Part shown: piece after piece, positions 1 to 12,452 of the stretch
How positions within the stretch are numbered: position 1 is the stretch's first letter
How the letters are laid out: each line of letters starts with the position of its first letter
Origin: a virus
Direction: 5' to 3' (one strand)
DNA length: 12,846 nt
Virus genome (UHGV): UHGV-0823586
Position numbers and translations under genes: made by a program
Notes under the pieces: generated by a model
Database searches by the model: none
Told to the model about the DNA's origin: nothing
The model's input: the letters and a program-made list of their open reading frames with translations, nothing else

Positions 1-1
1 G

Positions 2-40
2 CTGACTATTTATCAAATAGATAACCTTGCTAATAGTCAG
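2..40. repeat. Nested inverted repeat at the window edge: outer 9-bp arms CTGACTATT (2-10) and AATAGTCAG (32-40), inner arms TTATC (10-14) and GATAA (20-24)
   Basis: Read directly: the reverse complement of 2-10 equals 32-40, and an inner 5-bp inverted repeat with a 5-nt spacer lies inside the loop. The region is AT-rich and upstream of the 499-aa ORF. A possible sigma70-like -10 TAATAT lies at 59-64. Confidence 0.3.
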
Positions 41-96
41 ATGAAAAGCAAAGGAAGTTAATATTAGAACAGCTTGAGCCAGCTATTAATAACACC

Positions 97-1596
97 ATGG
101 CCCAGCTATATAACGGTGAGGTTCCAGATTATATACCGGCTCAGGAGACCATCATCAGGGGGTATGGAAAAAACGCAGATAAAATAATCAATCAACTGGA
201 TATAGCGATTGATAACGCGAGAATATTCCAGGCAATTCAGTATTTGCCTCCTTCTCAGCAGCAAGAAGAAATGCAGAAAGTGAAGCCTGAGGTTAACGAT
301 CCTCACTATGCGTTAAAACTCGATGCTTACGGAAAATTGTCTGCATTGCTTCAGAGATCAAATGAAGCAATTCAGGCGCAACGGGATTCACGCAGATTCA
401 ATGAGGCGCTGACAATAGGTGAAAAATTAGACCCAAGCAACAAGTCAATGCAGAAAGCTGCTGATTACACAGAAATGGCGCAGAACTTTCGTATTAATGA
501 TGTCTCCACTCATGATGGGGTTGTTCGGCTTGTGGCTCAGACTGGCATAATGCCTTCGCAGGTCATCACGCAGCTTTCAGCAGTATCCCGATCCAGCAAT
601 CAGGAAGTGGTTAAAAATGCGGCGGAACTGTTTAGTCGGTTATATGAAACAGACAATGCATCTATTGGAAATATGCCGAAGGATATGCAGGGTTTTTATC
701 TGACTGTTAAGCAACTAACTGATTCTGGCATGTCTGCTGATGCGGCTATCGAGCAGGCGCAGAACCTTACGTACAACCAGACCGATGCTCTTAAAGCTCA
801 ATTGGCATCAACGCAGAGTTCAAAAGAGTACAAAAATGATCGCAGCAAGGCGATGAATTCTGCTGTCAGCAATATGGCGCAGTGGTTCCGTTGGGATCCG
901 TCTGCGGATGACCAGACGCCGGAAGCAGCTAGATTCCGTAATGACTATCAGACGCTGTATGACATTAACTACCGCGTTGCTGGTGGTAACGCTGACGTAG
1001 CGAAGCAAATGACCAACCAGCAGATAGCCCGCACCTGGAGTATCAGCGAGGTTAACGGAGAAGCGCAGTTTATGAAATATGCACCGGAGGCGCTTTATCA
1101 ATATGGGCCGTCAGGCTGGCAGGCGGCGCAGTGGAAAGCTGAAAAAGAACGGCTGATGTACGGTGAGCGCAAAGAGATTATAACAACCAGTCCGACGTTG
1201 CTTGGGATCACGTCAGGTAATGCTCCTGTAGTTGAGACAAAAACCCCTGAGAGTCGTATTAATGGAGAATTATTCATAACCCCTGACGTGTTAACACCCC
1301 GTAATGGTGATTACGCCATTATGGTAAGAACTAAGGATAAAAATGGCATCGATCGGGTCCAGCCGTTTTATAACAAACATGGGCGTCCTATGCGTTGGGA
1401 ACCATCACTAGAAGATTGGGAACCTTATAAGGAAATGCAGCAGGAACGGGAGCAGTACGAGCAGGAAGAAATTATGCGTGGACAGGCTATACGAAACTTC
1501 AAAGACAAGCATCGCGCTCTGGATGAGCAGTATCAGCGCCTGCATAACGAACGTATGGACAAATTTAAAGATTACTTTTCGTGGGGATCTAAATAA
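97..1596 (+). CDS. Hypothetical protein, 499 aa, Gln/Glu-rich and probably largely alpha-helical; possibly a virion internal/ejection protein or an accessory gene
   Basis: Long uninterrupted ORF with an ATG at 97 and in-frame stops upstream at 22-24 and 34-36. It has no convincing Shine-Dalgarno sequence. Its stop TAA (1594-1596) overlaps the ATG of the next gene (TAATG). I recognise no enzymatic motif and no P-loop. Confidence 0.55.
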   Translation: MAQLYNGEVPDYIPAQETIIRGYGKNADKIINQLDIAIDNARIFQAIQYLPPSQQQEEMQKVKPEVNDPHYALKLDAYGKLSALLQRSNEAIQAQRDSRRFNEALTIGEKLDPSNKSMQKAADYTEMAQNFRINDVSTHDGVVRLVAQTGIMPSQVITQLSAVSRSSNQEVVKNAAELFSRLYETDNASIGNMPKDMQGFYLTVKQLTDSGMSADAAIEQAQNLTYNQTDALKAQLASTQSSKEYKNDRSKAMNSAVSNMAQWFRWDPSADDQTPEAARFRNDYQTLYDINYRVAGGNADVAKQMTNQQIARTWSISEVNGEAQFMKYAPEALYQYGPSGWQAAQWKAEKERLMYGERKEIITTSPTLLGITSGNAPVVETKTPESRINGELFITPDVLTPRNGDYAIMVRTKDKNGIDRVQPFYNKHGRPMRWEPSLEDWEPYKEMQQEREQYEQEEIMRGQAIRNFKDKHRALDEQYQRLHNERMDKFKDYFSWGSK

Positions 1597-2432
1597 TGCC
1601 AGTTTATGCACAAGCTGAAGATCTTAATAACGGACTGATCCCGTCAGGTAATATTTTGCCGGAACAAACTGGGTTTGATGTTGCCCCTCCGGAAGGGGCT
1701 AATCCTGAGCCATTGCCACCTGAGCCTTCCGTATGGGGGGCTGCAATGCGACAGAACAATATTCTGTCTGGTTTTTTCCGCCCAGCCAGACAGTTTGAAC
1801 CGGTCGAGGGTTATAACCCATATGCTGATAAAAATGAGTTGCACGGTTATGAATACTGGGGGGCGAAATTTGCAGATTCCCGATCGCCAGAGGAAACGGC
1901 GTGGATTAAGCAGCAGATAGATGATGAAAATGAAGACAGACGTTTATTGTCTGATGCTGGCGTAGTTGGAACCATTGCCAGTATTGCTGCGGGAATGGAT
2001 CCGGTTACTGTTGCGTCAATGTTTATTCCCGGTGCTCAAGGAGGGGCACTGGCGCGTATTGGCTCACAGATTGCGATTGGTGCTGCCGGTACAGCATTAA
2101 GCGAGGTTGTACTGAATAATCAGCAAATAACACGCTCATGGGGTGAAAGTGCCGCTCACGTTGCAGCGGGTGCGATGATGAGCGGCGTGTTTGCCAGTGC
2201 TGGTGTTGCGCTTTCGCCATCCGTCCGGGCTGCAGCCACGCGTGAGGTTGCTGATGCTCTTGATAATATGAGCATTACATCAGCGACTGACAGGGCTGCC
2301 GCTTCGCTTTCTGATGGTGGTAGTGTTGGTGCTATGAAAATTGATACAGCGACTCTGGATGATTTAACCCCTGTTTCCGGTGGGTGGGTTGGAAAGGCTG
2401 CATGGAAGATTTCGGATAAATTCTTCTTCTGA
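1596..2432 (+). CDS. Hypothetical protein, 278 aa, with Gly/Ala-rich hydrophobic segments (glycine-zipper-like); possibly membrane-active
   Basis: ATG at 1596 is coupled to the upstream stop, with GGGGA 8 nt upstream. The central region (GVVGTIASIAAGMDPVTVASMFIPGAQGGALARIGSQIAIGAAGTALS ... AAGAMMSGVFASAGVALS) has repeated small-residue spacing typical of membrane-inserting segments. The stop TGA is at 2430-2432, inside the 3' end of the convergent minus-strand gene. Confidence 0.55.
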   Translation: MPVYAQAEDLNNGLIPSGNILPEQTGFDVAPPEGANPEPLPPEPSVWGAAMRQNNILSGFFRPARQFEPVEGYNPYADKNELHGYEYWGAKFADSRSPEETAWIKQQIDDENEDRRLLSDAGVVGTIASIAAGMDPVTVASMFIPGAQGGALARIGSQIAIGAAGTALSEVVLNNQQITRSWGESAAHVAAGAMMSGVFASAGVALSPSVRAAATREVADALDNMSITSATDRAAASLSDGGSVGAMKIDTATLDDLTPVSGGWVGKAAWKISDKFFF

Positions 2433-3467
2433 TATTTCACCTTTACGTGGATCACCGACTTTGGCGATCAGTTTATCCACGTTACCCATCCCCCAGTTAT
2501 ATGCTGCTCCGGCCAATATTTCGGAGCCGTACTTACCATACAGTTGATTTACATAGTCACTGGCAAGCATTTCATGCTGTTGTTCGTCCGTAGGGTTGTA
2601 TTCAACGCCACGTTTGGCCGCCAGTTCTTTCCCTGTGCCCGGCATTAACTGGTATTTCCCCTGGGCCCTCTCTCCAGAAGATGTTTTCGGTCCTTCAAGA
2701 ATACTACCATCAGGATTAAAATGACGATCACCTGATTCAACAAGGCGTATGGCACGCATGTCCATGCCTCCAGAATCATTTTTCTGAAACTGACCATTTA
2801 ACCATCCTTCCGGATTAGCAGCGGCATAATTCTTCGCCCGCATTTCTGTGGCACTGCGATCATCACTTTCTATTTCTTCCAGAATGCGTTCTTGTGACCA
2901 TCCCCTGGCTGCTCCATATCTGGCAATGGCTACCATTCTGGAATTTCTGGCTAAAGTGGCAGTTTGCGGGTCATTCCAGGCATCCGCTTCATTTTGTATC
3001 CATAATTTTCTCGTTGCCTGATATTGCTCATCTTCATAGGCATTTGTCTGCCCTATCTCATGTCTGAGAACTCCAGTACTGAACTGAATTTTCTGTGTTC
3101 TGGCTTGTTGCAAAAACATATTTCTTGCTGCTTCATCAGTCAATGAAGCAGCTATTTCTTCCACATCCTGATCAAATCCAGATATGTACTCTTGCCCCTT
3201 ACCAATCGCATTTTTGCCTTGTTGTGCATAAAAACCGGTTTGAGGGTTATAAAGACGTTCATTGCTGCGCTGATTAAGCTGAAGGATGGCATCCTGAGAC
3301 AATGCAACATTCGCTTTCTGCCTGGCTTCACCATATGCCACCGCATACTGATCTGCGACATTCGCCAGCACCTGACCTGCTTGAGGAACATCGAAGGTCT
3401 GAAAACCACCGGTTTGCACACCACGACTTTGCACCTGGCGTCCGGATGTAGTAGGAACAACAGGCAT
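2364..3467 (-). CDS. Internal virion protein with a C-terminal soluble lytic transglycosylase (SLT-like) domain
   Basis: Motifs read in the translation: catalytic-type E-S-G (RLVESGDRHF), then GKYQLMPGT, then AYNWG, in the order expected for family-1 lytic transglycosylases. The first codon in the ORF track is TTG; the ATG is at 3465-3467 and overlaps the upstream stop (TGATG). It sits where the T7 gp16 transglycosylase would be expected. Confidence 0.7.
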   Translation of the reverse strand: MPVVPTTSGRQVQSRGVQTGGFQTFDVPQAGQVLANVADQYAVAYGEARQKANVALSQDAILQLNQRSNERLYNPQTGFYAQQGKNAIGKGQEYISGFDQDVEEIAASLTDEAARNMFLQQARTQKIQFSTGVLRHEIGQTNAYEDEQYQATRKLWIQNEADAWNDPQTATLARNSRMVAIARYGAARGWSQERILEEIESDDRSATEMRAKNYAAANPEGWLNGQFQKNDSGGMDMRAIRLVESGDRHFNPDGSILEGPKTSSGERAQGKYQLMPGTGKELAAKRGVEYNPTDEQQHEMLASDYVNQLYGKYGSEILAGAAYNWGMGNVDKLIAKVGDPRKGEISEEEFIRNLPCSLSNPPTGNRG

Positions 3468-4033
3468 CAATAACCTCCTATTTTGAATCGGGAGTCAGAA
3501 TTCATAAAACCTGAGTTAGATAACATTGGCGTGTTTCCTTGCTTACTAATCGGATTGATACTTCCGCCACCCAACTTATATGCACCGTATGCTTTTAGTG
3601 GTGCCGTTAACAAAGTGCTGGTCATCGATGATTTAGCAGCCGACTGAGCAGCAGCCCCCTGTGCCTGAGCATTCATTCCCTGAACCTGATACCCATATGC
3701 CTCACGCTGAGCATTATTCACTGTCGTTAACGCATCAAGAGTGCCGAACTGAGCATTATCCGCAAAAACGTCAAGAGCTGTTCCGCTACTTAATTCCGCA
3801 CCGGTAGCCCCCATAGTGGCCGCCGCAGTGCCTGAGCGTTGACGCATTTCACGACGACGCTGATCCGCTTCAATATTCCCACGATTGATTGAATCCTGTG
3901 CCTGAGCTTCAGCAATTTCAGCATTCCGATCAGCTATGGCTGACTGGTATTTTGCCTGCTTGCTCTGGCTGTACATTGACGCGGCTGTGGATGCCACTGT
4001 GACGGCAACCAAAGCGATGGCTGGGTTACACAT
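3467..4033 (-). CDS. Putative internal virion/ejection protein with an N-terminal transmembrane segment (T7 gp14 positional analogue)
   Basis: ATG at 4031-4033 overlaps the upstream stop (TAATG). The N-terminus is hydrophobic (NPAIALVAVTVASTAAS) and is followed by a Gln/Ala-rich, probably helical region. The gene lies between the tubular proteins and the transglycosylase protein. Confidence 0.55.
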   Translation of the reverse strand: MCNPAIALVAVTVASTAASMYSQSKQAKYQSAIADRNAEIAEAQAQDSINRGNIEADQRRREMRQRSGTAAATMGATGAELSSGTALDVFADNAQFGTLDALTTVNNAQREAYGYQVQGMNAQAQGAAAQSAAKSSMTSTLLTAPLKAYGAYKLGGGSINPISKQGNTPMLSNSGFMNSDSRFKIGGY

Positions 4034-4497
4034 TATTTTCTCTCCATGTGAAATCTGTGGAAATTAAGACCAAGAGCACCATAAGGCGCGGCTTCTTCAA
4101 GCCTGAATCCAAGCCAGTGCAGCCATGCTTTGGCAACATGGTTTCGCTCGTCGACGTAGTTTTCCAAGCGCGGATAAACTGCCAGCATCTGCTGCAATAC
4201 AGGGCGGCAGTGGCGCAGAAATGTCTTCTGATATTTTTCAATACGGCTGGTCCCGACCAGCCATGGCGTACCATTGCCACCGATCATTGACGCCGGAGAT
4301 ACACCAAACATGGTTACCAGCTCTCCGTTCGCGAACCCTGACCAGGCCATAGTCGCAGTGCGCAGACCAACACGCAGCGCATCTTCGGTAGTCATCAGCG
4401 ATACCGCATACAGTTCGTCAATATCAGCCTGACGAACATCCGGCAAAATCATCTGAAGATGCTCTTCGGTAGCGGGAATAATTCGAACATCGATCAT
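4033..4497 (-). CDS. Hypothetical virion-associated protein, 154 aa (T7 gp13 positional analogue)
   Basis: ATG at 4495-4497 overlaps the stop of the 823-aa gene (TGATG). The call rests on position in the operon only; I recognise no motif. Confidence 0.5.
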   Translation of the reverse strand: MIDVRIIPATEEHLQMILPDVRQADIDELYAVSLMTTEDALRVGLRTATMAWSGFANGELVTMFGVSPASMIGGNGTPWLVGTSRIEKYQKTFLRHCRPVLQQMLAVYPRLENYVDERNHVAKAWLHWLGFRLEEAAPYGALGLNFHRFHMERK

Positions 4498-6968
4498 CAG
4501 AATCCCCCAACAGTAAGGCGAGGAATAACGGCAAGAACAGACAGCGGCAACGGGTCAAGCTGACGGATTTTTACACGTCCGTTTTTGCCCCAGTTACTGT
4601 CCAGTTTCACTTCTACTTTTCCGGTAGCATCATCAACAGGATCATCGTAGAACTCGAATTCACGCTGTGGATATTCGTACCATTTACCGCCGGGCGTAGT
4701 CGCCCAGATGCCGCGGCTGGCATTCACAACCAGAGTAACGGACGGGATCACCTGTTTTTTGTCCAGCAGCGTTTCCTGTCCGTTAATGTTGATATCCAGT
4801 GTTTCGAATTCAGCAGTTATTGGCAGGCCGATGTGAACTACAGCCCCCGGAGATTCCAGCGTGACGGCACCTCCGGAAACCACTTTCTGTGGTTCCACGT
4901 TCGCATCAGAGAGAATGTTTACGGTCTGGCCTTCAAGATGAGACAGGCCTCCAAATGTCCGGCGCGCCATCTGCCAGTTCGTGGTGGCCACATTCCTGAG
5001 GGATGGCGGGACGTTCCTGTTAGCACGAACCACTACAGCGGTATTGCTGGTTACAGAAATAATGTCGCAACGTAATTCTTTTGACACCTCATCACCAGTA
5101 TCAGGATCAGTTCCGGTATAAGGGAACTGTAGTTGCGCGCCGACATCACTACTGGTGAAGTACGCACCACCAGAAACACTGATTGTATATTCCGCGCGGT
5201 AATCCCATTCACCAGAACCACCAGTGATGGTCATCGTTCTGTCAGACGTATTTCTTCCATCATAGCTAAGGCCAGAATCAACAAAGAAAGCATCTTCATC
5301 GCTGGTAAATAAACGGCTGGACAGTCGCTCGATGTATCTCACTGTTTGCCCGTTAACGGTTCGGTTAACGACGAAATACACCGCATCTTCATTTCCTTCG
5401 CTGATACTGCATGTGCTTTCATATTTTCCGGTACTGGATTGTGGTGCCCATGCAAAAACCTGCTGATCACGCAAATAGGTCATCACCAGTAATTTACCGT
5501 CATCACGAATGCAGAAGGCGCTGGAGTAAGGGACAATAGAGAAGCACCAGTCAACAATACTGTGCTTCTGAAAAAGATGATTGGCAAGGATGGTCAGGTC
5601 GTTCCCCTGATAGCCGTCAACATCGAATGAGTAGGCCAGATCACGGACAACACTGCCTTTCTCCTGGACGAACAGAGCAATATTCGCCACGGCAATTGGT
5701 GGGACATTGCTCGAGCCATTTGATCCCTGAGAGCTGAATGCAAATGATGATGGGGTAAGCACTTTGTTCTGGTCGCCAGTGATGACGTACTCACCTCCGG
5801 AAGTCAGCGCCACCAGCGAACCAACATCAATCAGGTGACGGATCTCATTAACCTGACGCCCGGCATAGGTGTAGATAATTCTGTCGTCATCCTGCGTAGG
5901 ATTGCTTTTGCCAAAATCCTTATAATCCCCGGTACGGCTGGCCCAGATAGTCTGAGGAAACGCAGTCGATGCGGCGAAGTAAAGACGTTGTTGATAATAA
6001 ACAACAGTGCCAGGATAACCATTAACACTGTTCCAGGCATATTTAGCCCATTTATAGCTGGCATTATCCTCGCCAACTACCTGCGAAGGGATATAGGAAA
6101 TCACCTCGGCAGTTGCAGTAGTTCCATTTGCAGCAGTGATACGGGCAATGCCAAAACCACTGTGCAGATATTCCCACTCAATGCCAGTATCATCATCACC
6201 GGATCCGCCCCAGCCATCCCATGATGTGCCTTCTGTATGCGAAGGGCGCAAAGTACCTGTTTTGCCTGCTTTAACGGCGCGATAGTAGTTACTGTCTGCT
6301 CGGCGAATATCGCCAATCGACGTACTCTTACTGGTTTCCCATACCGGCACAGAATCCACTGCAGGCTGTTCCAGATAGAACAATTTGCCTACCTGCTCCG
6401 CGCCAAAAATAGAGGCGCTTGCCGTTAGCGTAATTGTCCCGGTGCTGGCGCTGGCATAAACCGTCACTGACTCGTCAATATTGATATCTTCAAATGGCCC
6501 GTTCTTCGTTACCACATCAACCAGTTGCCAGTTGTCATGCGCATAGCGGCGCAACTCTTTCGGCGGGTATGCCGGATGAACCAGCGTAAGCACGTCTGCG
6601 CTTTGCGTGAATTTAATTCGGAACAGATCGGCTTCAGTATATGGCGTGGAAATTTCATAAATAACATTGCTGCTGTTCAGCACCAACGCACCATCTTTGA
6701 TAACGCGCATGTACTGGTGTCCGAACTCCAGAGCATAAGTCTGAACCGTCGAGAACTGGAACGGGATCAGGCGGCATTTCCGATTTGGATATTTGGCGGC
6801 ACCGACAAAACGCGTACCAGGTCGATTCTCAACGCCGCCATACTGCCGCACGATAAAGTTATCGCACTTGCGCAATGCCACCTGGTACTTCGCCATGTCG
6901 ATACGTCCGTACAACGACGGTCCAATCTCACCACCAGCAAAGCTGGGCTGGATCCAACTGATAGCCAT
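4497..6968 (-). CDS. Tail tubular protein B / nozzle (T7 gp12-like)
   Basis: The 823-aa ORF directly follows the gp11-like gene with a TGATG overlap. Its size is close to T7 gp12 (about 794 aa) and the gp11-gp12 order is conserved. The assignment is by size and synteny, not by sequence alignment. Confidence 0.65.
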   Translation of the reverse strand: MAISWIQPSFAGGEIGPSLYGRIDMAKYQVALRKCDNFIVRQYGGVENRPGTRFVGAAKYPNRKCRLIPFQFSTVQTYALEFGHQYMRVIKDGALVLNSSNVIYEISTPYTEADLFRIKFTQSADVLTLVHPAYPPKELRRYAHDNWQLVDVVTKNGPFEDINIDESVTVYASASTGTITLTASASIFGAEQVGKLFYLEQPAVDSVPVWETSKSTSIGDIRRADSNYYRAVKAGKTGTLRPSHTEGTSWDGWGGSGDDDTGIEWEYLHSGFGIARITAANGTTATAEVISYIPSQVVGEDNASYKWAKYAWNSVNGYPGTVVYYQQRLYFAASTAFPQTIWASRTGDYKDFGKSNPTQDDDRIIYTYAGRQVNEIRHLIDVGSLVALTSGGEYVITGDQNKVLTPSSFAFSSQGSNGSSNVPPIAVANIALFVQEKGSVVRDLAYSFDVDGYQGNDLTILANHLFQKHSIVDWCFSIVPYSSAFCIRDDGKLLVMTYLRDQQVFAWAPQSSTGKYESTCSISEGNEDAVYFVVNRTVNGQTVRYIERLSSRLFTSDEDAFFVDSGLSYDGRNTSDRTMTITGGSGEWDYRAEYTISVSGGAYFTSSDVGAQLQFPYTGTDPDTGDEVSKELRCDIISVTSNTAVVVRANRNVPPSLRNVATTNWQMARRTFGGLSHLEGQTVNILSDANVEPQKVVSGGAVTLESPGAVVHIGLPITAEFETLDININGQETLLDKKQVIPSVTLVVNASRGIWATTPGGKWYEYPQREFEFYDDPVDDATGKVEVKLDSNWGKNGRVKIRQLDPLPLSVLAVIPRLTVGGF

Positions 6969-7573
6969 CAGGACAACCTCGCAATGGTAAACTCGTCAAC
7001 CGGTGGCTGTGGTTCCTGTGATTCATTCTGGCTATGCGAGCCAGCACTAAGAATCACGCGATTGTACATATTGAGGGCAAACGTACCGAGGTCTGCATTC
7101 CCAGTCAGCGCCATGTTAATAGCTGCCGCAAGACGCCAGGCCAACGCCTCCATAAAAATGGCATCAAACATGTTCACATCTGTAACGCGAGAGACATACT
7201 TGAGCCATGCCTGAGGCTGGTCTGTGTAGATCAACTTTCCTGTTCCGTTGGTGTCTGCACCAACTTCGTACTGAACGCGCATTGCTGCTGTTGGATTGCG
7301 TACACCAGGAAGCATAATTTCAGTAATGCGCAGACAATCTGACGGGTACTGGTACGCATATTCCCAGTCAGGCGGTGGATTGCTCGTATCTGCAAGCGCC
7401 ACGCGTTTGGTAGCAAAGTTCCAGTCAAAATCAGAAAGCACAGTATCACGGCAGGCCTCAAAGTGCAGCGAACATTCCCCCGCTTCCTTGCTGGCTTCCG
7501 TCAGGCTGTTAATGCTGCGGCTGTTGCCAATATTGGACAGCGCACGATTACAGATCTCTACTACAGAGGCCAT
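6968..7573 (-). CDS. Tail tubular protein A / adaptor (T7 gp11-like)
   Basis: About 201 aa from the ATG at 7571-7573 (the ORF track starts at a GTG 3 nt upstream). A GGAGGT Shine-Dalgarno lies 5 nt upstream. The N-terminal pattern (ICNRALSNIGNSRSINSLTE ... WNFATKRVAL) resembles the N-terminus of T7 gp11 as I recall it. Size and position before the large nozzle gene match. Confidence 0.65.
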   Translation of the reverse strand: MASVVEICNRALSNIGNSRSINSLTEASKEAGECSLHFEACRDTVLSDFDWNFATKRVALADTSNPPPDWEYAYQYPSDCLRITEIMLPGVRNPTAAMRVQYEVGADTNGTGKLIYTDQPQAWLKYVSRVTDVNMFDAIFMEALAWRLAAAINMALTGNADLGTFALNMYNRVILSAGSHSQNESQEPQPPVDEFTIARLS

Positions 7574-7896
7574 CACTCACCTCCGTTACCGTACAGAGTT
7601 TCAGCCGCTGATTTTTCTACATCCCCGGAAACAGGAGCGATCGCCATATCAGTGATCTGCAGATCGGCGCTGCGATTAACGCCATCGTCAGTTTCTCTGG
7701 CAGACAGGCCTCGAATAACAGCCTTTGCAGTTATCATCACTTCCGTTCCGACGCCCTTAGGTTGCGCCTTCAGCTTATTCAATGTGTCGTTATTCAGCGT
7801 GATGCACAGCCCCCACGGGTATTCATCGCGAGTTCTGGTTTCTCCGCTCTCATCCTGGTAGCTGTCAGTGCCGGTTTTGAGGTTTACGAGTTCCAT
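7573..7896 (-). CDS. Hypothetical small protein, about 107 aa, first gene after the terminator hairpin
   Basis: ATG at 7894-7896 with AGGAG 5 nt upstream; the ORF track starts at a GTG at 7902. Its stop overlaps the start of the gp11-like gene (TGATG). Confidence 0.5.
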   Translation of the reverse strand: MELVNLKTGTDSYQDESGETRTRDEYPWGLCITLNNDTLNKLKAQPKGVGTEVMITAKAVIRGLSARETDDGVNRSADLQITDMAIAPVSGDVEKSAAETLYGNGGE

Positions 7897-7912
7897 ATAC
7901 ACTCCTGCAATA

Positions 7913-7930
7913 AAGGGGCCGAAGCCCCTT
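7913..7930 (-). terminator. Rho-independent terminator hairpin on the minus strand: 7-bp stem AAGGGGC/GCCCCUU with a UUCG tetraloop, followed by UAUU
   Basis: Read directly: 7913-7919 pairs perfectly with 7924-7930 around loop 7920-7923. On the minus-strand RNA the stem is followed by a U-rich run (UUUAUU, counting the closing stem Us). It lies between the stop of the 111-aa gene (7947) and the Shine-Dalgarno of the 107-aa gene. Confidence 0.6.
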
Positions 7931-7946
7931 GTCTGATCCGCGAGGC

Positions 7947-8282
7947 TTACACGCCCAGTTCTTTACGCTTATCTGCGATCTTCTCGCGGAGCGTTTCGGC
8001 TTTGGCGTTATGGTGTGGCTTCTGGTTAAAGAGCAATTCGTACTCTTCACGGAGCTTATCCAGTTCACCATCATCTGACACATCGTTGATGATTTTGGTG
8101 CTGGTTGCTGCCATTGACACCTTTCCTGCAACTTTTGCTTTTGCCTGTCTGGCTGCATCGTTAACAGGTTCCAGTGCGCTACCAGGCTCACCTTCGTATT
8201 CGATTTCTGCCCCCTCCGGCCACAGAGTGTTATGGATATGAGAGAGGCGCAGAACGCGGTATCTTGGTTTCTCACCTGACAT
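7947..8282 (-). CDS. Hypothetical small protein, about 111 aa
   Basis: ATG at 8280-8282 with AAGGTG 6 nt upstream; the ORF track starts at a GTG at 8291. Charged, helical-looking C-terminus. No motif recognised. Confidence 0.5.
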   Translation of the reverse strand: MSGEKPRYRVLRLSHIHNTLWPEGAEIEYEGEPGSALEPVNDAARQAKAKVAGKVSMAATSTKIINDVSDDGELDKLREEYELLFNQKPHHNAKAETLREKIADKRKELGV

Positions 8283-8292
8283 CAATATCACC

Positions 8293-8730
8293 TTAACCAG
8301 TTACTTTTGAGCGGATCGGATACGGCGTATTGGCATCAACATCCAGACTGATACCCGCAGTGAATTTGCCGGCCGTTAGTGGGCCAGTTGCGACGGAGTA
8401 GTTAACACGCAGATATCGCTGAACACCGGCAGGCACCTTTGCAGAAACAACTCGTTTACCTGCTGTCAGGGTATCCTTTGCCAGTGCGCCACTATCATAA
8501 ATAGTGGACCATGAGCTGTTATTCTCACTCGTCTGCAACTGGATGTTTACAGTTTCCTCACCACTTGCCGTGGCGGCTTCGTTAACCAGCACCCAAAACT
8601 CAAGCGGATAACCCACGCCGATATCACGACGTTTTCCGTCAATTGGACCGAGATCGATTACGTCAGTAGAAGCCGCGGTATTCGTAACCGCCTGAGCTTC
8701 GGAGAACATCAACAGTTTGTCGGTGATCAT
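8293..8730 (-). CDS. Hypothetical Ser/Thr-rich, probably beta-rich protein, 145 aa; possible capsid decoration or head-associated protein
   Basis: ATG at 8728-8730 with GGAG 7 nt upstream. It lies immediately downstream of the capsid gene. The composition (TAG/TGP/SVATG repeats) suggests an Ig-like or decoration-type fold, but this is inference only. Confidence 0.5.
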   Translation of the reverse strand: MITDKLLMFSEAQAVTNTAASTDVIDLGPIDGKRRDIGVGYPLEFWVLVNEAATASGEETVNIQLQTSENNSSWSTIYDSGALAKDTLTAGKRVVSAKVPAGVQRYLRVNYSVATGPLTAGKFTAGISLDVDANTPYPIRSKVTG

Positions 8731-8745
8731 CTTCTTTCTCCATTA

Positions 8746-8765
8746 GTGGGTCTGTTACGACCCAC
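8746..8765 (-). promoter_or_regulatory. Intercistronic stem-loop (7-bp stem GTGGGTC/GACCCAC, 6-nt loop) between the capsid gene and the next gene; possible RNA processing or stabilising element
   Basis: Perfect inverted repeat 8746-8752 / 8759-8765 inside the 51-nt gap after the capsid stop. It has no U-tract, so it is not a canonical terminator. Confidence 0.4.
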
Positions 8766-8781
8766 AGGTTAATAACAGGCG

Positions 8782-9774
8782 TTACACCACGCGGGCTTCT
8801 GTTTCCAGAAGCGCATCAGTTTCACGGATTGGTACACCACGGAATGAAGTCCACCACTCGCCTTCTGTCTCTTTTACGCTGATCGCCAGAGATGTTTTCT
8901 CCAGAGATTGCAGATCAAGAGCCTGGCCTACAGTGCGGTTCATGTAGAACACCGGGCGACCCATGCCACGATTTGGAATGCGATGCAGTGCTTTAACCAT
9001 CAACTTCGCAATATCTGCGGCAGAGGAAGGTTCTGAAAGATTGCTGACATCGATGTTTGCAATGCGAACAACATAACGCCAGTCACGCAGAGCAAGTCCG
9101 TTGTCCCATTTGTAATGGGTACGGTAGCCTTCGTACTTGCCGCCATTCGCATCTTCCAGTGTCACCTGGCCTTTATCTTCCATCTGGATGCCAGCCTTCT
9201 GCCCTTTCGGGAAGATGCCATGCACGGTGTTTTCGCCCCACACCACTAACCAGATTGAGGTGTTATCTGTACCCGTGCCACCAGCATCAATGATGTTCTG
9301 AGCATTACCCGCAGACAGGCTGGAATAGCGGGAGGACAGTCCCATAAACTGCTGAGGGTTAACGCTGGAATCACCATAAAACAGTGTCTGCGCCATCTGC
9401 TGATTCATCGCTTCAATAAATGCGCGGTCTTCAGACAGGCGGAATTCGGCAGTATTACCGTTCAGATCAGCCAGTGACTTATCGACTTCAGCATAGGTTT
9501 CCAGCATGCCAACGTAATCGGTTACCTGCACTGTGGTTGATTTGCTTGGCTGTACGCCATAGTTCAGCAAACGCCAGGTAGCTGAAGGTAAACCAGAACG
9601 AATGGTGGTTCGGTGTCCGGTAGGAAGGTTCCCTTCGACAAAAGGCATATCCTGAAGGATCGGGTTTGTTTGACCGAGAAGCTCGATAATCTTATCGACT
9701 TTCCCGTTTGGATCGACGCGCTTACCCCAGTCAGCCAGCGTTAGCGCAGTTAAGCCTTTAACAGCCATTGTCAT
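8782..9774 (-). CDS. Major capsid protein (putative)
   Basis: The 330-aa ORF follows the scaffold-like gene and precedes a stem-loop, the classic scaffold-then-capsid arrangement. The true start may be the second ATG at 9766-9768, which has better spacing to GAGAGG. The call is by size and synteny; the sequence does not obviously resemble T7 gp10. Confidence 0.65.
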   Translation of the reverse strand: MTMAVKGLTALTLADWGKRVDPNGKVDKIIELLGQTNPILQDMPFVEGNLPTGHRTTIRSGLPSATWRLLNYGVQPSKSTTVQVTDYVGMLETYAEVDKSLADLNGNTAEFRLSEDRAFIEAMNQQMAQTLFYGDSSVNPQQFMGLSSRYSSLSAGNAQNIIDAGGTGTDNTSIWLVVWGENTVHGIFPKGQKAGIQMEDKGQVTLEDANGGKYEGYRTHYKWDNGLALRDWRYVVRIANIDVSNLSEPSSAADIAKLMVKALHRIPNRGMGRPVFYMNRTVGQALDLQSLEKTSLAISVKETEGEWWTSFRGVPIRETDALLETEARVV

Positions 9775-9782
9775 TTCCTCTC

Positions 9783-10478
9783 TTATTTGCCATAGAGCAC
9801 TTCGGCCGCACTACGCTGGCCTTCATTACCACCGGTGACCATGCCATCTTCAGACATCGCCTTTCCGATTCTCACGAACGTTTTGACCAGATCAGGGTGA
9901 TTACCCAGCCCGGTGGTGTTCAGATATTCTTTGAGTTCAGGTGTCCCGAACTGGTCAAGCGCACGCTGTGCGACGCTAAGGTTAGAAATCAACTTGCCGC
10001 CACCGATTTCTTTGTCAGCTTTTACATCCGCAGCCCACTGCTCGGTTGTTTTCTGCCAGGCTTCTGCCTGGCGCTGCTGAACACCTGCCAGAATCTTCGG
10101 ATAAGCATCAACCAGCTTTTGCGCTTGCTCGTTGGTCAGGTTAAGTTCTCGCGCCACCGGCTCGAATTCCTTCAACGCTTCTGTATCCAGCTCTACGCCT
10201 TCGGCAGCCTGAAACTCGTACTTCTCAGGCGCACCCTCTGGTTTATCGCCGTCCTTTTTTTCACCCTGCTTATCGTTTTCAGGCTTTTTGTCATCAGCAG
10301 GTTTATCGCCATCAGCAACAGGTTGTGGCTTATCACCTTCCGGTTGTGATGGATCACCAACTGGAGCAGGGTTATCACCTGCAGGCGCTGACGGTTCTGA
10401 CGCAGCCGGAGCTGCTCCACCATCGACTGGTTGCTCATTGCAAAGACGGCGATACAGCAAACGCTCAAATAAATTCAT
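9783..10478 (-). CDS. Scaffolding protein (putative), with a Pro/Asp/Lys/Glu-rich low-complexity N-terminal region and a helical C-terminal domain
   Basis: ATG at 10476-10478 with AGGAG 5 nt upstream; the ORF track starts at a GTG at 10484. It lies between the portal and capsid genes. The acidic low-complexity linker (PAPAASEPSAPAGDNPAPVGDPSQPEGDKPQP...) is typical of scaffold proteins. Confidence 0.55.
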   Translation of the reverse strand: MNLFERLLYRRLCNEQPVDGGAAPAASEPSAPAGDNPAPVGDPSQPEGDKPQPVADGDKPADDKKPENDKQGEKKDGDKPEGAPEKYEFQAAEGVELDTEALKEFEPVARELNLTNEQAQKLVDAYPKILAGVQQRQAEAWQKTTEQWAADVKADKEIGGGKLISNLSVAQRALDQFGTPELKEYLNTTGLGNHPDLVKTFVRIGKAMSEDGMVTGGNEGQRSAAEVLYGK

Positions 10479-10480
10479 GA

Positions 10481-10777
10481 TCACTCCTGTTCACTGGCCT
10501 CTTTGGCCATCTTCAAATACTGTTCAGGGCAATGCGCCATAACGCGCTGAAACAGTTCCAGCGCCAGATTGCGTTGCCCCTCATTAAATGCCATTGCCAT
10601 AGCGTCCATCGGTGAGATAGCGGAAAACACACGGCCTTTCTCCAGCACCGACCAGACAACGCGACGCCCCTGTTCACTGCTCATGACAAAGCAAATGTCA
10701 TCAATTTCACGCTGTGCCATGTCACGTTGCTTACGGGCGTTTTCTTCTTTCAGTTGATCGTCTTCGTAATCTGTCAT
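10481..10777 (-). CDS. Hypothetical small acidic protein, 98 aa, between portal and scaffold
   Basis: ATG at 10775-10777 overlaps the portal stop (ATGA). Charged and helical-looking. Function unknown. Confidence 0.5.
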   Translation of the reverse strand: MTDYEDDQLKEENARKQRDMAQREIDDICFVMSSEQGRRVVWSVLEKGRVFSAISPMDAMAMAFNEGQRNLALELFQRVMAHCPEQYLKMAKEASEQE

Positions 10778-12452
10778 TGTGATTGCCCACCCTGACCACT
10801 AACTGCATTCGCCATAGCTGACAAAACACTCGGATCCGAAGTTTTAGCTTCGCTTAGCGTCTTGGCACCCTGTGCCGCCGCCATCCCCATCGCCATCATT
10901 TGTTGCTGCTGTTGTTGCTGTGCCCGTTGCTGGCGAGCCTGCTCAACCTGTTCCTGCGGAACAATGACGGTTGGAGACACTCCGGACATATCAGCGAATG
11001 CATCGATCGCCTGATCAACGTTGAGTTTGTCGAGAGCTTCTGGTTTCGCTTGCGCAAGTTGACCAATGAAGTTGACCGTAGACGCCAGACTGGACAGGCC
11101 GATAGACTTCTGCGCCTGAGCCATGACGGAAATGTATTCGACCTTCAGGGGCATACCTTCCATCACGTCAGGCGGTGGCGGCAGCATGTTTTTACGCACC
11201 ATCATCGAGAAAGCGCGGTCAATGAGAGGATTAAGACATTCGTCGTTCAGACGCTCCAGAACCGGCCCAACATCAGAAGTTTTTCTTCTTTCATTTCGAT
11301 CACCGCTTCAACAGGCATCGAGCGGGTATTGATGTTCTGCAACATCATGAACAGATCGACAAAGTAGGCGCTGTTAATGATTTGACGGGTGTCCTGAATG
11401 TCTGCCACCAAATCTGCTGTACTGGGGTTAACCAGATAAGCAGGCCTGAAACCATCCTGACCAGTAATCAGATCGATATACGTGATGTCGCCAGGAAGAA
11501 GGGAGGCACGCTGATTCTTGAGGGAAGTCGGAGCAACCATCGGCGGATTGGTGGCTTTATCAATCAACTGCGACTTGCGCTTCTGGAGAAGCTGCAATGC
11601 CTTAACAGGTCCAAGCGCCAGCATACCCGGGCATGATGATCCATAAACATCTTCGCCGTTAACTTCCCAGCGCGGAGCCATAATTGGAAACTCATCGAAT
11701 CCGGACTCACGCAACAACTTGTCGTTATCGCCACCAACCTCGTAATAAACCGATTTGAATGGCTTGTTCTTGCTATCCAGCTTCGATGTATCGCGGTCAA
11801 TGTTCGGGTAAACCGAATGCATCACTTCAATCCACTTCTCGTAGGTTCCGCTTTCCCACATGCTTTTTACGGATTCGCTGACGTTATTTAGCCCGAACTC
11901 CTGAACAAGCTGACGAACAGTCATAGAGAACTTGCGAAAACAGGTGTCCACACTGCCACGAGGTGAGTTAGCCAGGTAGTAACTGCCTATCGGGAATGGC
12001 ATTGTGCGAATGATGTCCTCGTCATCCTCCAGCACTGCCATTGCACCAGTGCTGTATGTGCCGAGGCTTCCGTATAACTGCGGCAGCGACTGATAGAGAT
12101 TCGACTTATTGAACATATCGTTCATGCGGTTCTGCACCGCCTCAAGCCACAACTTAACAGGGCCATAATCCATCATTTCAGGATCTGGCGTAGCCAGGCG
12201 AAACCACGGACGCGCGGGGCTTGTGATGCCTGACATCATGCCGCTGGCGAGAGTGCGCGCCGCCATAGTCCCGGTCGAATCAATAATGCGTGTATTGCGT
12301 CGATCGTTACGGTTGACCTCAGAAGTCAGAAAGCGGGAACCACGCGGGTTGATGTAATCACTCAACTCGCGCCAGTGCGGCTCGAACGACTGACGCTCGC
12401 TTTCAAGTTGTGCGAACTGTTTGTTCAATCGCTCTTTAGTTGTTTCCGCCAT
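10774..12452 (-). pseudogene. Portal (head-to-tail connector) protein, T7 gp8-like, interrupted by a frameshift near 11280-11284
   Basis: Two adjacent ORFs (12452..11247, 401 aa; 11205..10774, 143 aa) belong to one gene. The downstream frame is open from 11307, and a single extra A in the A5 run (T5 on the plus strand, 11280-11284) joins them into one protein of about 545 aa. The C-terminal part (QQRAQQQQQQQMMAMGMAAAQG...) resembles the T7 gp8 C-terminus as I recall it. ATG at 12450-12452 with GGAG upstream. Confidence 0.8.

What the first reader, a model, noticed from the sequence alone, without database searches (positions are those of the whole stretch)
7913..7930. UUCG-tetraloop intrinsic terminator dividing the head gene block from the tail gene block
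A perfect 7-bp GC-rich stem with a UUCG loop followed by a U-rich tract lies on the minus strand after the capsid-side genes (capsid, 145-aa, 111-aa) and just before the Shine-Dalgarno of the 107-aa gene that leads into tail tubular A and B. This matches the logic of the T7 T-phi terminator after the capsid gene: partial termination would set the stoichiometry of abundant head proteins against less abundant tail proteins.
Basis: partly seen in the sequence, partly recalled or inferred. Interest (0 to 1): 0.4.

Follow-up and report, generated by a model that had tools for sequence, protein, structure and literature searches.

The report
Weak terminator hairpin inside phage head-tail operon
A small, conserved RNA hairpin in the structural-gene operon of a phiV10/epsilon15-type E. 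coli prophage looks like a deliberately leaky transcription stop; the same site is already annotated as a predicted terminator in phage epsilon15, so it is ordinary.

Summary
AAGGGGC-UUCG-GCCCCUU lies on the minus strand at 7930..7913. UUUAUUG follows the GC core, then AGGAG (7906..7902) and the ATG (7896) of the 107-aa gene.

The window is a Uetakevirus (phiV10/epsilon15-like) prophage. In my terminator-score scan this is the only positive site in the window on either strand. It is also the only positive site inside the roughly 16-kb structural operon of phiV10 and of epsilon15. It scores far below the operon-end terminators because its U-tract is short.

The hairpin recurs at the same gene junction in Enterobacterales, Rahnella/Advenella, Pantoea, Citrobacter/epsilon15 and Stenotrophomonas prophages. 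The arms change together and the loops vary (UUCG, GAAA, GGAU, AUUC). The epsilon15 RefSeq record already annotates the orthologous stem-loop as a rho-independent terminator.

Best reading: a leaky intrinsic terminator for the host RNA polymerase whose hairpin also protects the 3' ends it makes.

The "head versus tail" framing is only partly supported. The downstream gene belongs to the epsilon15 gp10 "capsid staple" family. A 2022 re-analysis argues that the real staple is a 130-aa protein; I infer this is gp8, whose homologue lies upstream here. No transcript data exist. Low novelty.

The parts
7913..7930 (-). Stem-loop AAGGGGC-UUCG-GCCCCUU. The conserved part is the GGGGC/GCCCC core plus the adjacent pair (7929 with 7914). 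The outermost A-U pair (7930 with 7913) is not conserved.
   Evidence: dG -12.1 kcal/mol; core -9.6; the core is invariant; the adjacent pair is A-U in 6, G-C in 4 and C-G in 2 of 12 sequences and never unpaired; the next pair out is paired in only 6 of 12.
7908..7914 (-). U-rich tract UUUAUUG directly after the GC core. It overlaps the last two stem positions. The expected RNA 3' ends, if termination occurs, are at about 7908-7905 (inferred).
   Evidence: T-score 3.2, against 4.7-5.2 for operon-end terminators. A U/C-rich tail is kept in all Enterobacterales, Pantoea, Rahnella, L115 and L156 orthologues but is absent in Stenotrophomonas.
7902..7906 (-). Shine-Dalgarno AGGAG of the 107-aa gene, 5 nt before the ATG at 7896.
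   Evidence: GGAG is invariant in the alignments. The distance from stem end to ATG is 16-22 nt in all orthologues.
7931..7946 (-). 16-nt spacer between the stop codon of the 111-aa gene and the hairpin. It is variable except for GCCUC (7946-7942).
   Evidence: All four polymorphic sites among 80 close relatives fall in this spacer.
7947..8282 (-). Upstream gene: 111-aa homologue of epsilon15 gp9. Function unknown.
   Evidence: (phrog_590). One search shows variable Ala/Lys repeats. The AF2 model has low confidence (pLDDT 62).
7573..7896 (-). Downstream gene: 107-aa homologue of epsilon15 gp10 (Pfam PF21628, annotated 'capsid staple protein'). Its real location in the virion is disputed.
   Evidence: PMC9207676. 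AF2 model and fold search without a match.
8293..8730 (-). 145-aa Bbp16-like capsid cement protein, the probable true decoration or staple protein.
   Evidence: 3J4U_H at E = 1.8e-27; 8CJZ_B at E = 1.7e-22. (PF21190)..
8782..9774 (-). Major capsid protein gene.
   Evidence: phrog_212 at E = 1.6e-112..
4497..7576 (-). Homologues of tail tubular protein A (6968-7576) and B (4497-6968), downstream of the 107-aa gene.

Best explanation
The hairpin is a weak (leaky) Rho-independent terminator for the host RNA polymerase. It sits inside the long structural-gene operon of a Uetakevirus prophage, between the gp9-like gene and the gp10-like gene.

Proposed mechanism (inferred). As the polymerase transcribes UUUAUUG, the nascent GGGGC-UUCG-GCCCC hairpin forms; its C(UUCG)G tetraloop is exceptionally stable and quick to fold. 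A fraction of elongation complexes then releases RNA at about 7908-7905. The remainder reads through into the gp10-like gene, the tail tubular A and B genes and the internal-protein genes, which are essential.

The released transcripts end in a stable hairpin that also shields them from 3' exonucleases. The expected result is more mRNA for portal, protease, capsid and cement proteins than for the genes downstream.

Shown: the anatomy, the position, the conservation and the weak score relative to operon-end terminators. Inferred: that termination actually occurs, how efficient it is, and its effect on protein ratios.
For: 1. Anatomy: a GC-rich stem, a UUCG loop and a U-rich tail on the coding strand, 16 nt after a stop codon.
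2. It is the only site with d > 0 in the window on either strand, and shuffles rarely match it.
3. The same scan over the whole phiV10 and epsilon15 genomes recovers most of the depositors' annotated terminators. All of those lie between genes, mostly at operon or cluster ends. The scan finds this site as the only one inside the ~16-kb structural operon. It is the weakest plus-strand site in phiV10 (d = 7.4 against 17-39) and, at d = 6.0, far below the three epsilon15 operon-end terminators (27-39). A terminator that must let essential tail genes through is expected to be weak.
4. Conservation at the same junction across divergent hosts, with coordinated changes in both arms: A-U to G-C to C-G at the base pair next to the core, and matched inner extensions in Pantoea, epsilon15 and Stenotrophomonas.
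5. The sense-strand loops are UUCG or GAAA in different clades, which argues for selection at the RNA level on this strand.
6. Hairpins of unrelated sequence followed by U-rich tails occupy the same place in the more distant loci L115, L156 and L103.
7. No polymorphism in stem, loop, tail or SD among 80 close relatives, against four polymorphic sites in the adjacent spacer.
8. The epsilon15 RefSeq annotators marked the orthologous stem-loop (7664..7686) as a rho-independent terminator.
Against: - There are no transcript 3'-end, RNA-seq or in vitro data for any member.
- The stem core is only 5-6 bp, and the U-tract is short and interrupted (5 U in 7). Predicted efficiency could therefore be close to nil.
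- The Stenotrophomonas orthologues keep a 9-bp hairpin but have no U-tract (d = -14).
- A second conserved, covarying hairpin after the capsid gene (8765..8746) never has a U-tail. These phages therefore also use intergenic hairpins for something other than canonical termination.
- If the gp10-like protein really is an equimolar capsid staple, attenuation just before it would be counter-productive.
- The d-score formula was recalled from d'Aubenton-Carafa et al. 1990 and applied with modern energy parameters, so its absolute value is approximate.
Confidence: 0.55

Rival explanations
1. The hairpin is mainly an mRNA-stability or processing element, with little or no termination. After endonucleolytic cuts downstream, the stable tetraloop hairpin stalls 3'-to-5' exonucleases. 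The upstream capsid/cement segment of the polycistronic mRNA would then outlive the downstream segment, as with the intercistronic hairpins of the Rhodobacter puf operon or the E. coli malEFG operon.
For: - The post-capsid hairpin at 8765..8746 is equally conserved and covaries strongly, yet has no U-tract. That points to a shared non-terminator role for intergenic hairpins in this module.
- The Stenotrophomonas orthologues keep the hairpin without any U-tail.
- The U-tract here is weak.
Against: A decay barrier does not need a U-rich tail. A U/C-rich tail abutting the stem is nevertheless kept in nearly all lineages, including hairpins of unrelated sequence (L115, L156, L103). The two roles are not exclusive, because a terminator hairpin also stabilises the 3' ends it creates.
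Confidence: 0.22
2. The hairpin is a translation-initiation element for the gp10-like gene. It would insulate the ribosome-binding site from upstream structure or from terminating ribosomes, and the U-rich stretch would act as an S1-binding enhancer. It could also serve as a protective 5' hairpin after processing.
For: - Hairpin, U-rich tract, SD and ATG are packed into 37 nt, with a conserved distance of 16-22 nt from stem end to ATG.
- The post-capsid hairpin has the same position relative to the SD of the cement gene.
- Stem, tail and SD are all invariant among close relatives.
Against: - Many distant homologues of the gene have a plain SD and no hairpin at all.
- The proximity to the SD is also explained by compact phage intergenic regions.
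- The candidate anti-SD pairing (GCCUC with the SD) is only 3 contiguous bp and shows no covariation.
- There is no direct evidence.
Confidence: 0.12
3. The hairpin has no function, or acts at the DNA level as a chance palindrome or a protein-binding inverted repeat.
For: - Perfect 7-bp stems occur 14 times in the window.
- The local fold is not better than shuffles.
- The GGGGC/GCCCC core itself never varies, so the core provides no covariation evidence.
Against: - Position-specific conservation across orders of bacteria, with coordinated arm changes.
- RNA-specific stable tetraloops (UUCG, GAAA) on the sense strand only.
- A strand-specific U-tail; the plus strand scores below zero.
- A single copy in the window.
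Confidence: 0.05

Closest known systems
Stem-loop annotated 'rho-independent terminator; transcriptional termination' at 7664..7686 of Salmonella phage epsilon15 (RefSeq NC_004775.2), between gp9 and gp10
   Same: - Orthologous flanking genes.
- The same GGGGC...GCCCC core.
- The same order of stop codon, hairpin, U-rich tail, SD and ATG.
- A similarly weak score (d = 6.0 against 7.4).
   Different: - epsilon15 has a longer stem (CGGGGCC/GGCCCCG plus a bulged extension, -16 kcal/mol), an AUUC loop and the tail CUUUUCUAU.
- It is also annotated on the opposite strand.
- The phiV10 record, which is the closest relative of the window, does not annotate the site.
- The epsilon15 feature is a prediction. 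I found no experimental test of it.
T7 T-phi terminator, between capsid gene 10 and tail tubular gene 11 (from established knowledge, Dunn & Studier 1983)
   Same: An incomplete terminator in a late structural operon, upstream of homologues of T7 tail tubular proteins A and B. The proposed purpose is the same: more capsid mRNA than tail mRNA.
   Different: - T-phi acts on the phage's own single-subunit RNA polymerase. Uetakeviruses encode none, so the host polymerase is the target.
- The site here is two genes after the capsid gene and one gene before tubular A.
- The hairpin is much smaller than T-phi.
Canonical E. coli intrinsic terminators with C(UUCG)G or GNRA tetraloop hairpins (d'Aubenton-Carafa et al. 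1990, from memory)
   Same: A short GC stem, a stable tetraloop, a U-rich tail, an upstream A residue pairing with the tail, and a positive d-score.
   Different: The stem core (5-6 bp) and the U-tract (5 U in 7, interrupted) are at the weak end of the range. The operon-end terminators of the same phages have T-scores of 4.7-5.2.
Intercistronic mRNA-stabilising hairpins (Rhodobacter puf operon, E. coli malE-malF REP; from established knowledge)
   Same: A stable hairpin between cistrons of one operon, upstream of genes needed in lower amounts.
   Different: Those elements lack a U-tract and act purely on decay. REP elements are multi-copy, whereas this element occurs once in the window.

Membership tests
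Rho-independent (intrinsic) terminator of bacterial RNA polymerase | GC-rich stem-loop (stem of about 5-14 bp, loop of 3-8 nt) on the transcribed strand | tested here: met
   Seven perfect pairs (five G-C), UUCG loop, -12.1 kcal/mol, on the minus (coding) strand.
Rho-independent (intrinsic) terminator of bacterial RNA polymerase | U-rich tract of about 7-9 nt immediately 3' of the stem | tested here: met
   UUUAUUG directly follows the GC core (5 U in 7). It is short and interrupted: T-score 3.2, against 4.7-5.2 for the operon-end terminators of epsilon15 and phiV10. The tool's stricter scan, which extends the stem into the U run, did not call it.
Rho-independent (intrinsic) terminator of bacterial RNA polymerase | Composite hairpin-plus-tail score above threshold (d > 0) | tested here: met
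   d = 7.4, the only positive site in the window; shuffles average 0.32 per window. The formula was recalled from memory and used with Turner-2004 energies, so the value is approximate.
Rho-independent (intrinsic) terminator of bacterial RNA polymerase | Located downstream of a stop codon, in an intergenic region | tested here: met
   It starts 16 nt after the TAA of the 111-aa gene, in a 50-nt gap.
Rho-independent (intrinsic) terminator of bacterial RNA polymerase | RNA 3' ends or release of polymerase at the site | not testable with these tools
   No Term-seq, RNA-seq or in vitro data were found.
T7 T-phi-type terminator for a phage single-subunit RNA polymerase | The phage encodes and uses a T7-like RNA polymerase for late genes | tested here: not met
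   No RNA polymerase gene is annotated in the complete epsilon15 and phiV10 records.
T7 T-phi-type terminator for a phage single-subunit RNA polymerase | Lies directly between the capsid gene and the tail tubular A gene | tested here: not met
   Two genes (145 aa, 111 aa) separate it from the capsid gene, and one gene (107 aa) separates it from tubular A. The position is analogous, not identical.
Uetakevirus gp9|gp10 intergenic stem-loop (annotated in epsilon15, NC_004775.2 7664..7686) | Orthologous flanking genes and a shared hairpin core | tested here: met
   The flanking genes are gp9 and gp10 homologues. The GGGGC...GCCCC core aligns.
Repetitive extragenic palindromes (REP-like) | Many dispersed copies | tested here: not met
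   One copy in the window even with 2 mismatches allowed. One place per genome (median) in E. coli, always in this prophage context.
RNase III processing site | About 20 bp or more of double-stranded RNA | tested here: not met
   The stem is 7 bp, and no longer helix appears in the fold of the region.
Any curated RNA family (Rfam 15) | Covariance-model match | tested here: not met
   No hit at gathering threshold in the window, and none at E <= 1 in 7700-8900.

The most novel reading that the evidence does not exclude
The gp9|gp10 hairpin and the covarying post-capsid hairpin (8765..8746) together form a conserved system that does not act by termination. Each places a very stable tetraloop hairpin immediately 5' of the Shine-Dalgarno of a small virion-protein gene. 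Protein ratios would then be set after transcription, through segmental mRNA stability or through insulation or boosting of translation initiation. Under this reading the U-tract would serve as a ribosome (S1) landing site rather than a release signal.
Probability: 0.15. Interest if true: 0.4.

Novelty: already known. Interest (0 to 1): 0.2.

Why it matters
As a terminator-like hairpin it is routine. The orthologous site is already annotated in the type phage epsilon15, and the idea of attenuating tail genes relative to capsid genes is textbook (T7 T-phi).

Two modest points of value remain.

First, this prophage region is present in about one in ten complete E. coli genomes (515 of 5426). A measured read-through value would therefore help interpret prophage transcriptomes.

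Second, the element is the only internal terminator-like signal of the structural operon, so its position bears on a live annotation question. If it separates high-copy from low-copy products, it agrees with the 2022 proposal that the real epsilon15 staple is a 130-aa protein, which I infer to be the Bbp16-like gp8, upstream of the hairpin. The gp10 family downstream, which NCBI's pipeline labels 'capsid staple protein', would then be misnamed. This is suggestive only.

Tried and rejected
- Rfam found nothing, neither over the whole window at gathering threshold nor over 7700-8900 at E <= 1.
- The tool's simple terminator scan did not list the site, because it extends the stem into the U run. 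I replaced it with my own d-score scan.
- A bidirectional terminator is rejected for this window: the plus-strand reading has no U tail and no d > 0 site. epsilon15 is annotated on both strands, but the minus-strand reading scores -16.
- An anti-SD clamp (GCCUC after the stop codon pairing with the SD) appears in the MFE fold. It is only 3 contiguous pairs, and its extension is not conserved, so I did not adopt it.
- The REP-like and RNase III readings are rejected.
- I looked for a Q-like antiterminator that would make internal terminators irrelevant. epsilon15 gp49, gp48 and gp31 have no antiterminator domain; gp31 matches PerC. This is inconclusive.
- The epsilon15 genome paper (Kropinski 2007) could not be retrieved under the PMC and PubMed ids I recalled. 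The ZX5 paper has no terminator or transcript-mapping data.
- The AF2 model of the 107-aa protein (pLDDT 75) gave no PDB fold match (best E = 0.7).
- The AF2 model of the 111-aa protein was too poor to search (pLDDT 62).
- The first viral-contig scan returned only near-identical loci. Diversity came from genome contigs and from scans seeded with divergent homologues.
- MAFFT put the 3' arms out of register. I therefore counted pairs on a hand-registered, N-padded alignment, which leans towards the structure.

Full report
**What the window is**

The central 2.9 kb of the window is 98% identical to Escherichia phages phiV10, TL-2011b and HEMP4, and 83% identical to Enterobacter phage Tyrion. These phages belong to the genus Uetakevirus, whose type member is Salmonella phage epsilon15.

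The structural genes run on the minus strand in this order:
- portal (split by a frameshift, see the last section)
- a 98-aa gene
- protease (9783-10484)
- major capsid protein (8782-9774)
- a 145-aa Bbp16-like cement protein (8293-8730)
- a 111-aa gp9-like gene (7947-8282)
- the hairpin
- a 107-aa gp10-like gene (7573-7896)
- tail tubular A (6968-7576) and tail tubular B (4497-6968) homologues
- internal virion proteins

**The observation**

The minus strand reads UAA-GCCUCGCGGAUCAGAC-AAGGGGC-UUCG-GCCCCUU-UAUUGC-AGGAG-UGUAU-AUG.

The hairpin alone folds at -12.1 kcal/mol, and the 5-bp GC core at -9.6 kcal/mol.

There are two qualifications:
- The two outer pairs are A-U pairs that borrow the first two U of the tail. 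The "7-bp GC-rich stem plus U-tract" is therefore better described as a 5-bp GC core followed by UUUAUUG.
- Neither the stem nor the local fold is unusual on its own. There are 14 perfect stems of 7 bp or more in the window, and the 61-nt context has z = -0.39.

**Is it more than chance?**

I scored every position on both strands with a hairpin-plus-U-tail discriminant. The form is that of d'Aubenton-Carafa et al. 1990, recalled from memory and used with ViennaRNA energies, so absolute values are approximate.
- This is the only site with d > 0 in the whole window (d = 7.4).
- Dinucleotide shuffles give 0.32 such sites per window, and 2 of 25 shuffles reach d >= 7.4.

The same scan over complete phiV10 and epsilon15 gives 9 positive sites in each genome.
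- In phiV10, seven of the nine coincide with terminators the depositors annotated (2238-2257, 19505-19522, 20394-20415, 26781-26813, 32040-32066, 33078-33100, and one at the genome end). The eighth (2689..2674, minus strand) is unannotated, and the ninth is the gp9|gp10 hairpin.
- In epsilon15, four of the nine coincide with annotated stem-loops, one being the gp9|gp10 site.
- All the annotated terminators lie between genes, mostly at operon or cluster ends.
- In both phages the gp9|gp10 hairpin is the only positive site inside the ~16-kb structural operon.
- It scores d = 6.0-7.4, against 17-39 for the other plus-strand sites of phiV10 and 27-39 for the three epsilon15 operon-end terminators. 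Its U-tract T-score is about 3.1, against 4.7-5.2 for the strongest of them.

The pattern, terminator-like but consistently weak, is what a terminator placed upstream of essential genes should look like.

**Conservation**

Among 80 viral contigs with 98-100% identical downstream protein, the intergenic region has four polymorphic sites. All four lie in the 17-nt spacer 5' of the stem, and none lies in the 36 nt from the stem to the ATG.

In more distant prophages, found through homologues of the downstream protein, the same junction carries these hairpins:

| Source | Stem and loop | 3' tail |
|---|---|---|
| Klebsiella, Scandinavium, Kluyvera, Pseudocitrobacter, Pseudescherichia, Salmonella PAT1 | GGGGC-UUCG-GCCCC | U-rich |
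| Superficieibacter | GGGGGC-UUCG-GCCCCC | U-rich |
| Rahnella, Advenella | GGGGC-GAAA-GCCCC | U-rich |
| Pantoea | GGGGCC-GGAU-GGCCCC | U-rich |
| epsilon15, Citrobacter | CGGGGCC-(A/U)UUC-GGCCCCG | U-rich |
| Stenotrophomonas | GGGGGCGCC-UUCG-GGCGCCCCC | none |

Hairpins of unrelated sequence followed by U-rich tails are found at the same place in L115, L156 and L103.

On a hand-registered alignment of 12 distinct versions:
- The pair next to the core is A-U in 6, G-C in 4 and C-G in 2, and is never unpaired.
- The inner extension pairs are always Watson-Crick.
- The next pair out (window 7930 with 7913) is paired in only 6 of 12.
- The covariation score exceeds all 500 shuffles. This alignment was fitted to the structure, and the GC core itself is invariant.

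The sense-strand loops belong to the extra-stable UUCG and GNRA classes in different clades. That points to selection on the RNA of this strand.

Many still more distant homologues of the gene have no hairpin, and the gene follows its upstream neighbour directly.

**What is already known**

The epsilon15 RefSeq record annotates a "rho-independent terminator" stem-loop at 7664..7686, exactly between gp9 and gp10. The element has therefore been recognised, as a prediction, in the type phage. The phiV10 and Tyrion records do not annotate it.

I found no transcript mapping for any Uetakevirus. The epsilon15 genome paper was not retrievable under the ids I recalled. Rfam has nothing for the region.

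**Does it divide head genes from tail genes?**

The downstream 107-aa protein matches epsilon15 gp10 in PDB 3J40 (E = 1.2e-21) and Pfam PF21628. NCBI names it "capsid staple protein". gp10 has been described as essentially 1:1 with the major capsid protein (PMC9207676). On that view the hairpin lies inside the head block, and attenuating just before gp10 makes little sense.

The same paper reports three things:
- The AlphaFold model of the 111-aa gp10 does not fit the staple density.
- A 130-aa epsilon15 protein does fit it.
- The original assignment was therefore probably wrong.

The paper does not name the 130-aa protein. I infer it is gp8, for these reasons:
- The gp8 CDS is 393 nt, which gives 130 aa.
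- gp8 is Bbp16-like.
- Bbp16 is the solved cement protein of BPP-1, whose capsid protein is reported as about 46% identical to epsilon15 gp7 (PMC3863775).

The window's 145-aa protein matches Bbp16 at E = 1.8e-27.

My own AF2 model of the 107-aa protein (pLDDT 75) is dominated by one long beta-hairpin. It has no significant match in the PDB, not even to the deposited gp10 model, which is consistent with the mis-assignment.

If the re-assignment holds, both abundant shell proteins lie upstream of the hairpin and everything downstream could be low-copy. The gp9-like protein remains uncharacterised: it has conserved N- and C-terminal parts, a variable Ala/Lys repeat linker, and an AF2 pLDDT of 62.

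**Mechanism and rivals**

| Explanation | Confidence |
|---|---|
| Leaky intrinsic terminator for the host polymerase, whose hairpin also protects the 3' ends it generates | ~0.55 |
| Pure mRNA-decay barrier | ~0.22 |
| Translation-initiation element for the gp10-like gene | ~0.12 |
| Chance or DNA-level palindrome | ~0.05 |

- **Decay barrier.** It gains weight from the second intergenic hairpin, after the capsid gene (8765..8746, GUGGGUC-GUAACA-GACCCAC). That hairpin covaries extensively across relatives: GUGGGCC/GGCCCAU, AUGGGCC/GGCCCAU, a 9-bp stem in the Klebsiella, Scandinavium and Kluyvera relatives, and AGCGGGGC/GCCCCGCU. It sometimes has a GAAA loop, but it never has a U-tail. The U-less Stenotrophomonas version of the gp9|gp10 hairpin points the same way. 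Against this rival, a U/C-rich tail is kept at the gp9|gp10 site in almost every other lineage.
- **Translation element.** The conserved 16-22 nt from stem end to ATG suggests it, but nothing shows it. The possible GCCUC-SD pairing is too weak to count.
- **T7 T-phi.** The analogy is positional only, because these phages have no RNA polymerase of their own.
- **Antitermination.** Whether late transcription is antiterminated is unknown. I found no Q-like domain.

**Verdict**

The feature is real and conserved. Its most probable function is that of a weak terminator, already predicted in epsilon15, and it is of low novelty. Its only wider interest is as circumstantial evidence in the gp8/gp10 "staple" naming question.

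**Other things seen in the window**

- The portal gene carries a 1-nt deletion in a G run.
- Window 1-2407 is inverted relative to TL-2011b and breaks two virion genes.

The window therefore comes from a defective prophage or from an imperfect assembly.

Noticed in passing
window 8746-8765 (minus strand): A second conserved hairpin, GUGGGUC-GUAACA-GACCCAC, lies in the 51-nt gap between the capsid stop (8782) and the ATG of the 145-aa cement gene (8730). It has no U-tail. Compensatory arm changes occur in Tyrion, PAT1, Klebsiella phi3.2, Scandinavium, Kluyvera, Superficieibacter, Rahnella and Pantoea, sometimes with a GAAA loop. It is absent in the epsilon15 clade, where gp7 and gp8 are 12 nt apart.
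   Followed up: partly
window 10774-12452 (minus strand), about 11268: The portal gene is split into ORFs of 401 and 143 aa by a 1-nt deletion in a G run (GGGG to GGG) relative to phiV10 (1679 nt against 1680 nt). This is either a pseudogene in a defective prophage or a homopolymer sequencing error.
   Followed up: yes
window 1-2407: This segment matches TL-2011b 25231-27638 in the opposite orientation to the rest of the window. It cuts the SLT-domain ejection protein (905 aa in TL-2011b) into an N-terminal part (2364-3470, minus strand) and a C-terminal part (97-1596, plus strand), and it truncates the next gene (1596-2432, plus strand). The inverted block ends exactly at window position 1. 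It is either a real inversion or an assembly fold-back artefact.
   Followed up: partly
window 7573-7896 (minus strand): The 107-aa protein carries the propagated name 'capsid staple protein' (PF21628, and PGAP annotation in the E. coli genomes listed). A 2022 re-analysis (PMC9207676) argues that the epsilon15 staple density belongs to a 130-aa protein, which I infer to be the Bbp16-like gp8. My AF2 model (pLDDT 75, one long beta-hairpin) matches nothing in the PDB, including its own homologue's deposited model 3J40_N.
   Followed up: partly
window 7947-8282 (minus strand): The gp9-like 111-aa protein has conserved N- and C-terminal parts joined by an Ala/Lys-rich linker. In homologues the linker varies in length through tandem duplications (EPLNDAAKEAKAKA...), giving proteins of up to 165 aa. 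The function is unknown, and the AF2 model has low confidence.
   Followed up: partly
window 7942-7946 (minus strand): GCCUC, immediately after the stop codon of the 111-aa gene, is invariant across the Enterobacterales clade while the next ~10 nt vary freely. It resembles the anti-SD sequence and pairs weakly (3 bp) with the downstream SD in the MFE fold. Its significance is unclear.
   Followed up: partly
L164 (phiV10) 50-67, plus strand: A fairly strong terminator-like hairpin (GCCGCCAACUAUGGCGGC followed by UUUAUUUUG, d = 21) lies just after the gp55 'transcriptional regulator' gene, inside the annotated 5' end of the small terminase CDS (41-715). epsilon15 annotates a terminator at the equivalent genome end (39646-39672). 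The order of regulator gene, terminator and packaging genes recalls the lambdoid Q/tR' arrangement and could mean that late transcription is antiterminated.
   Followed up: no
window 7880-7960, searched against complete E. coli genomes: The region containing the hairpin is present in 515 of 5426 complete E. coli genomes, almost always once per genome and on the chromosome. This prophage type is therefore very common.
   Followed up: no
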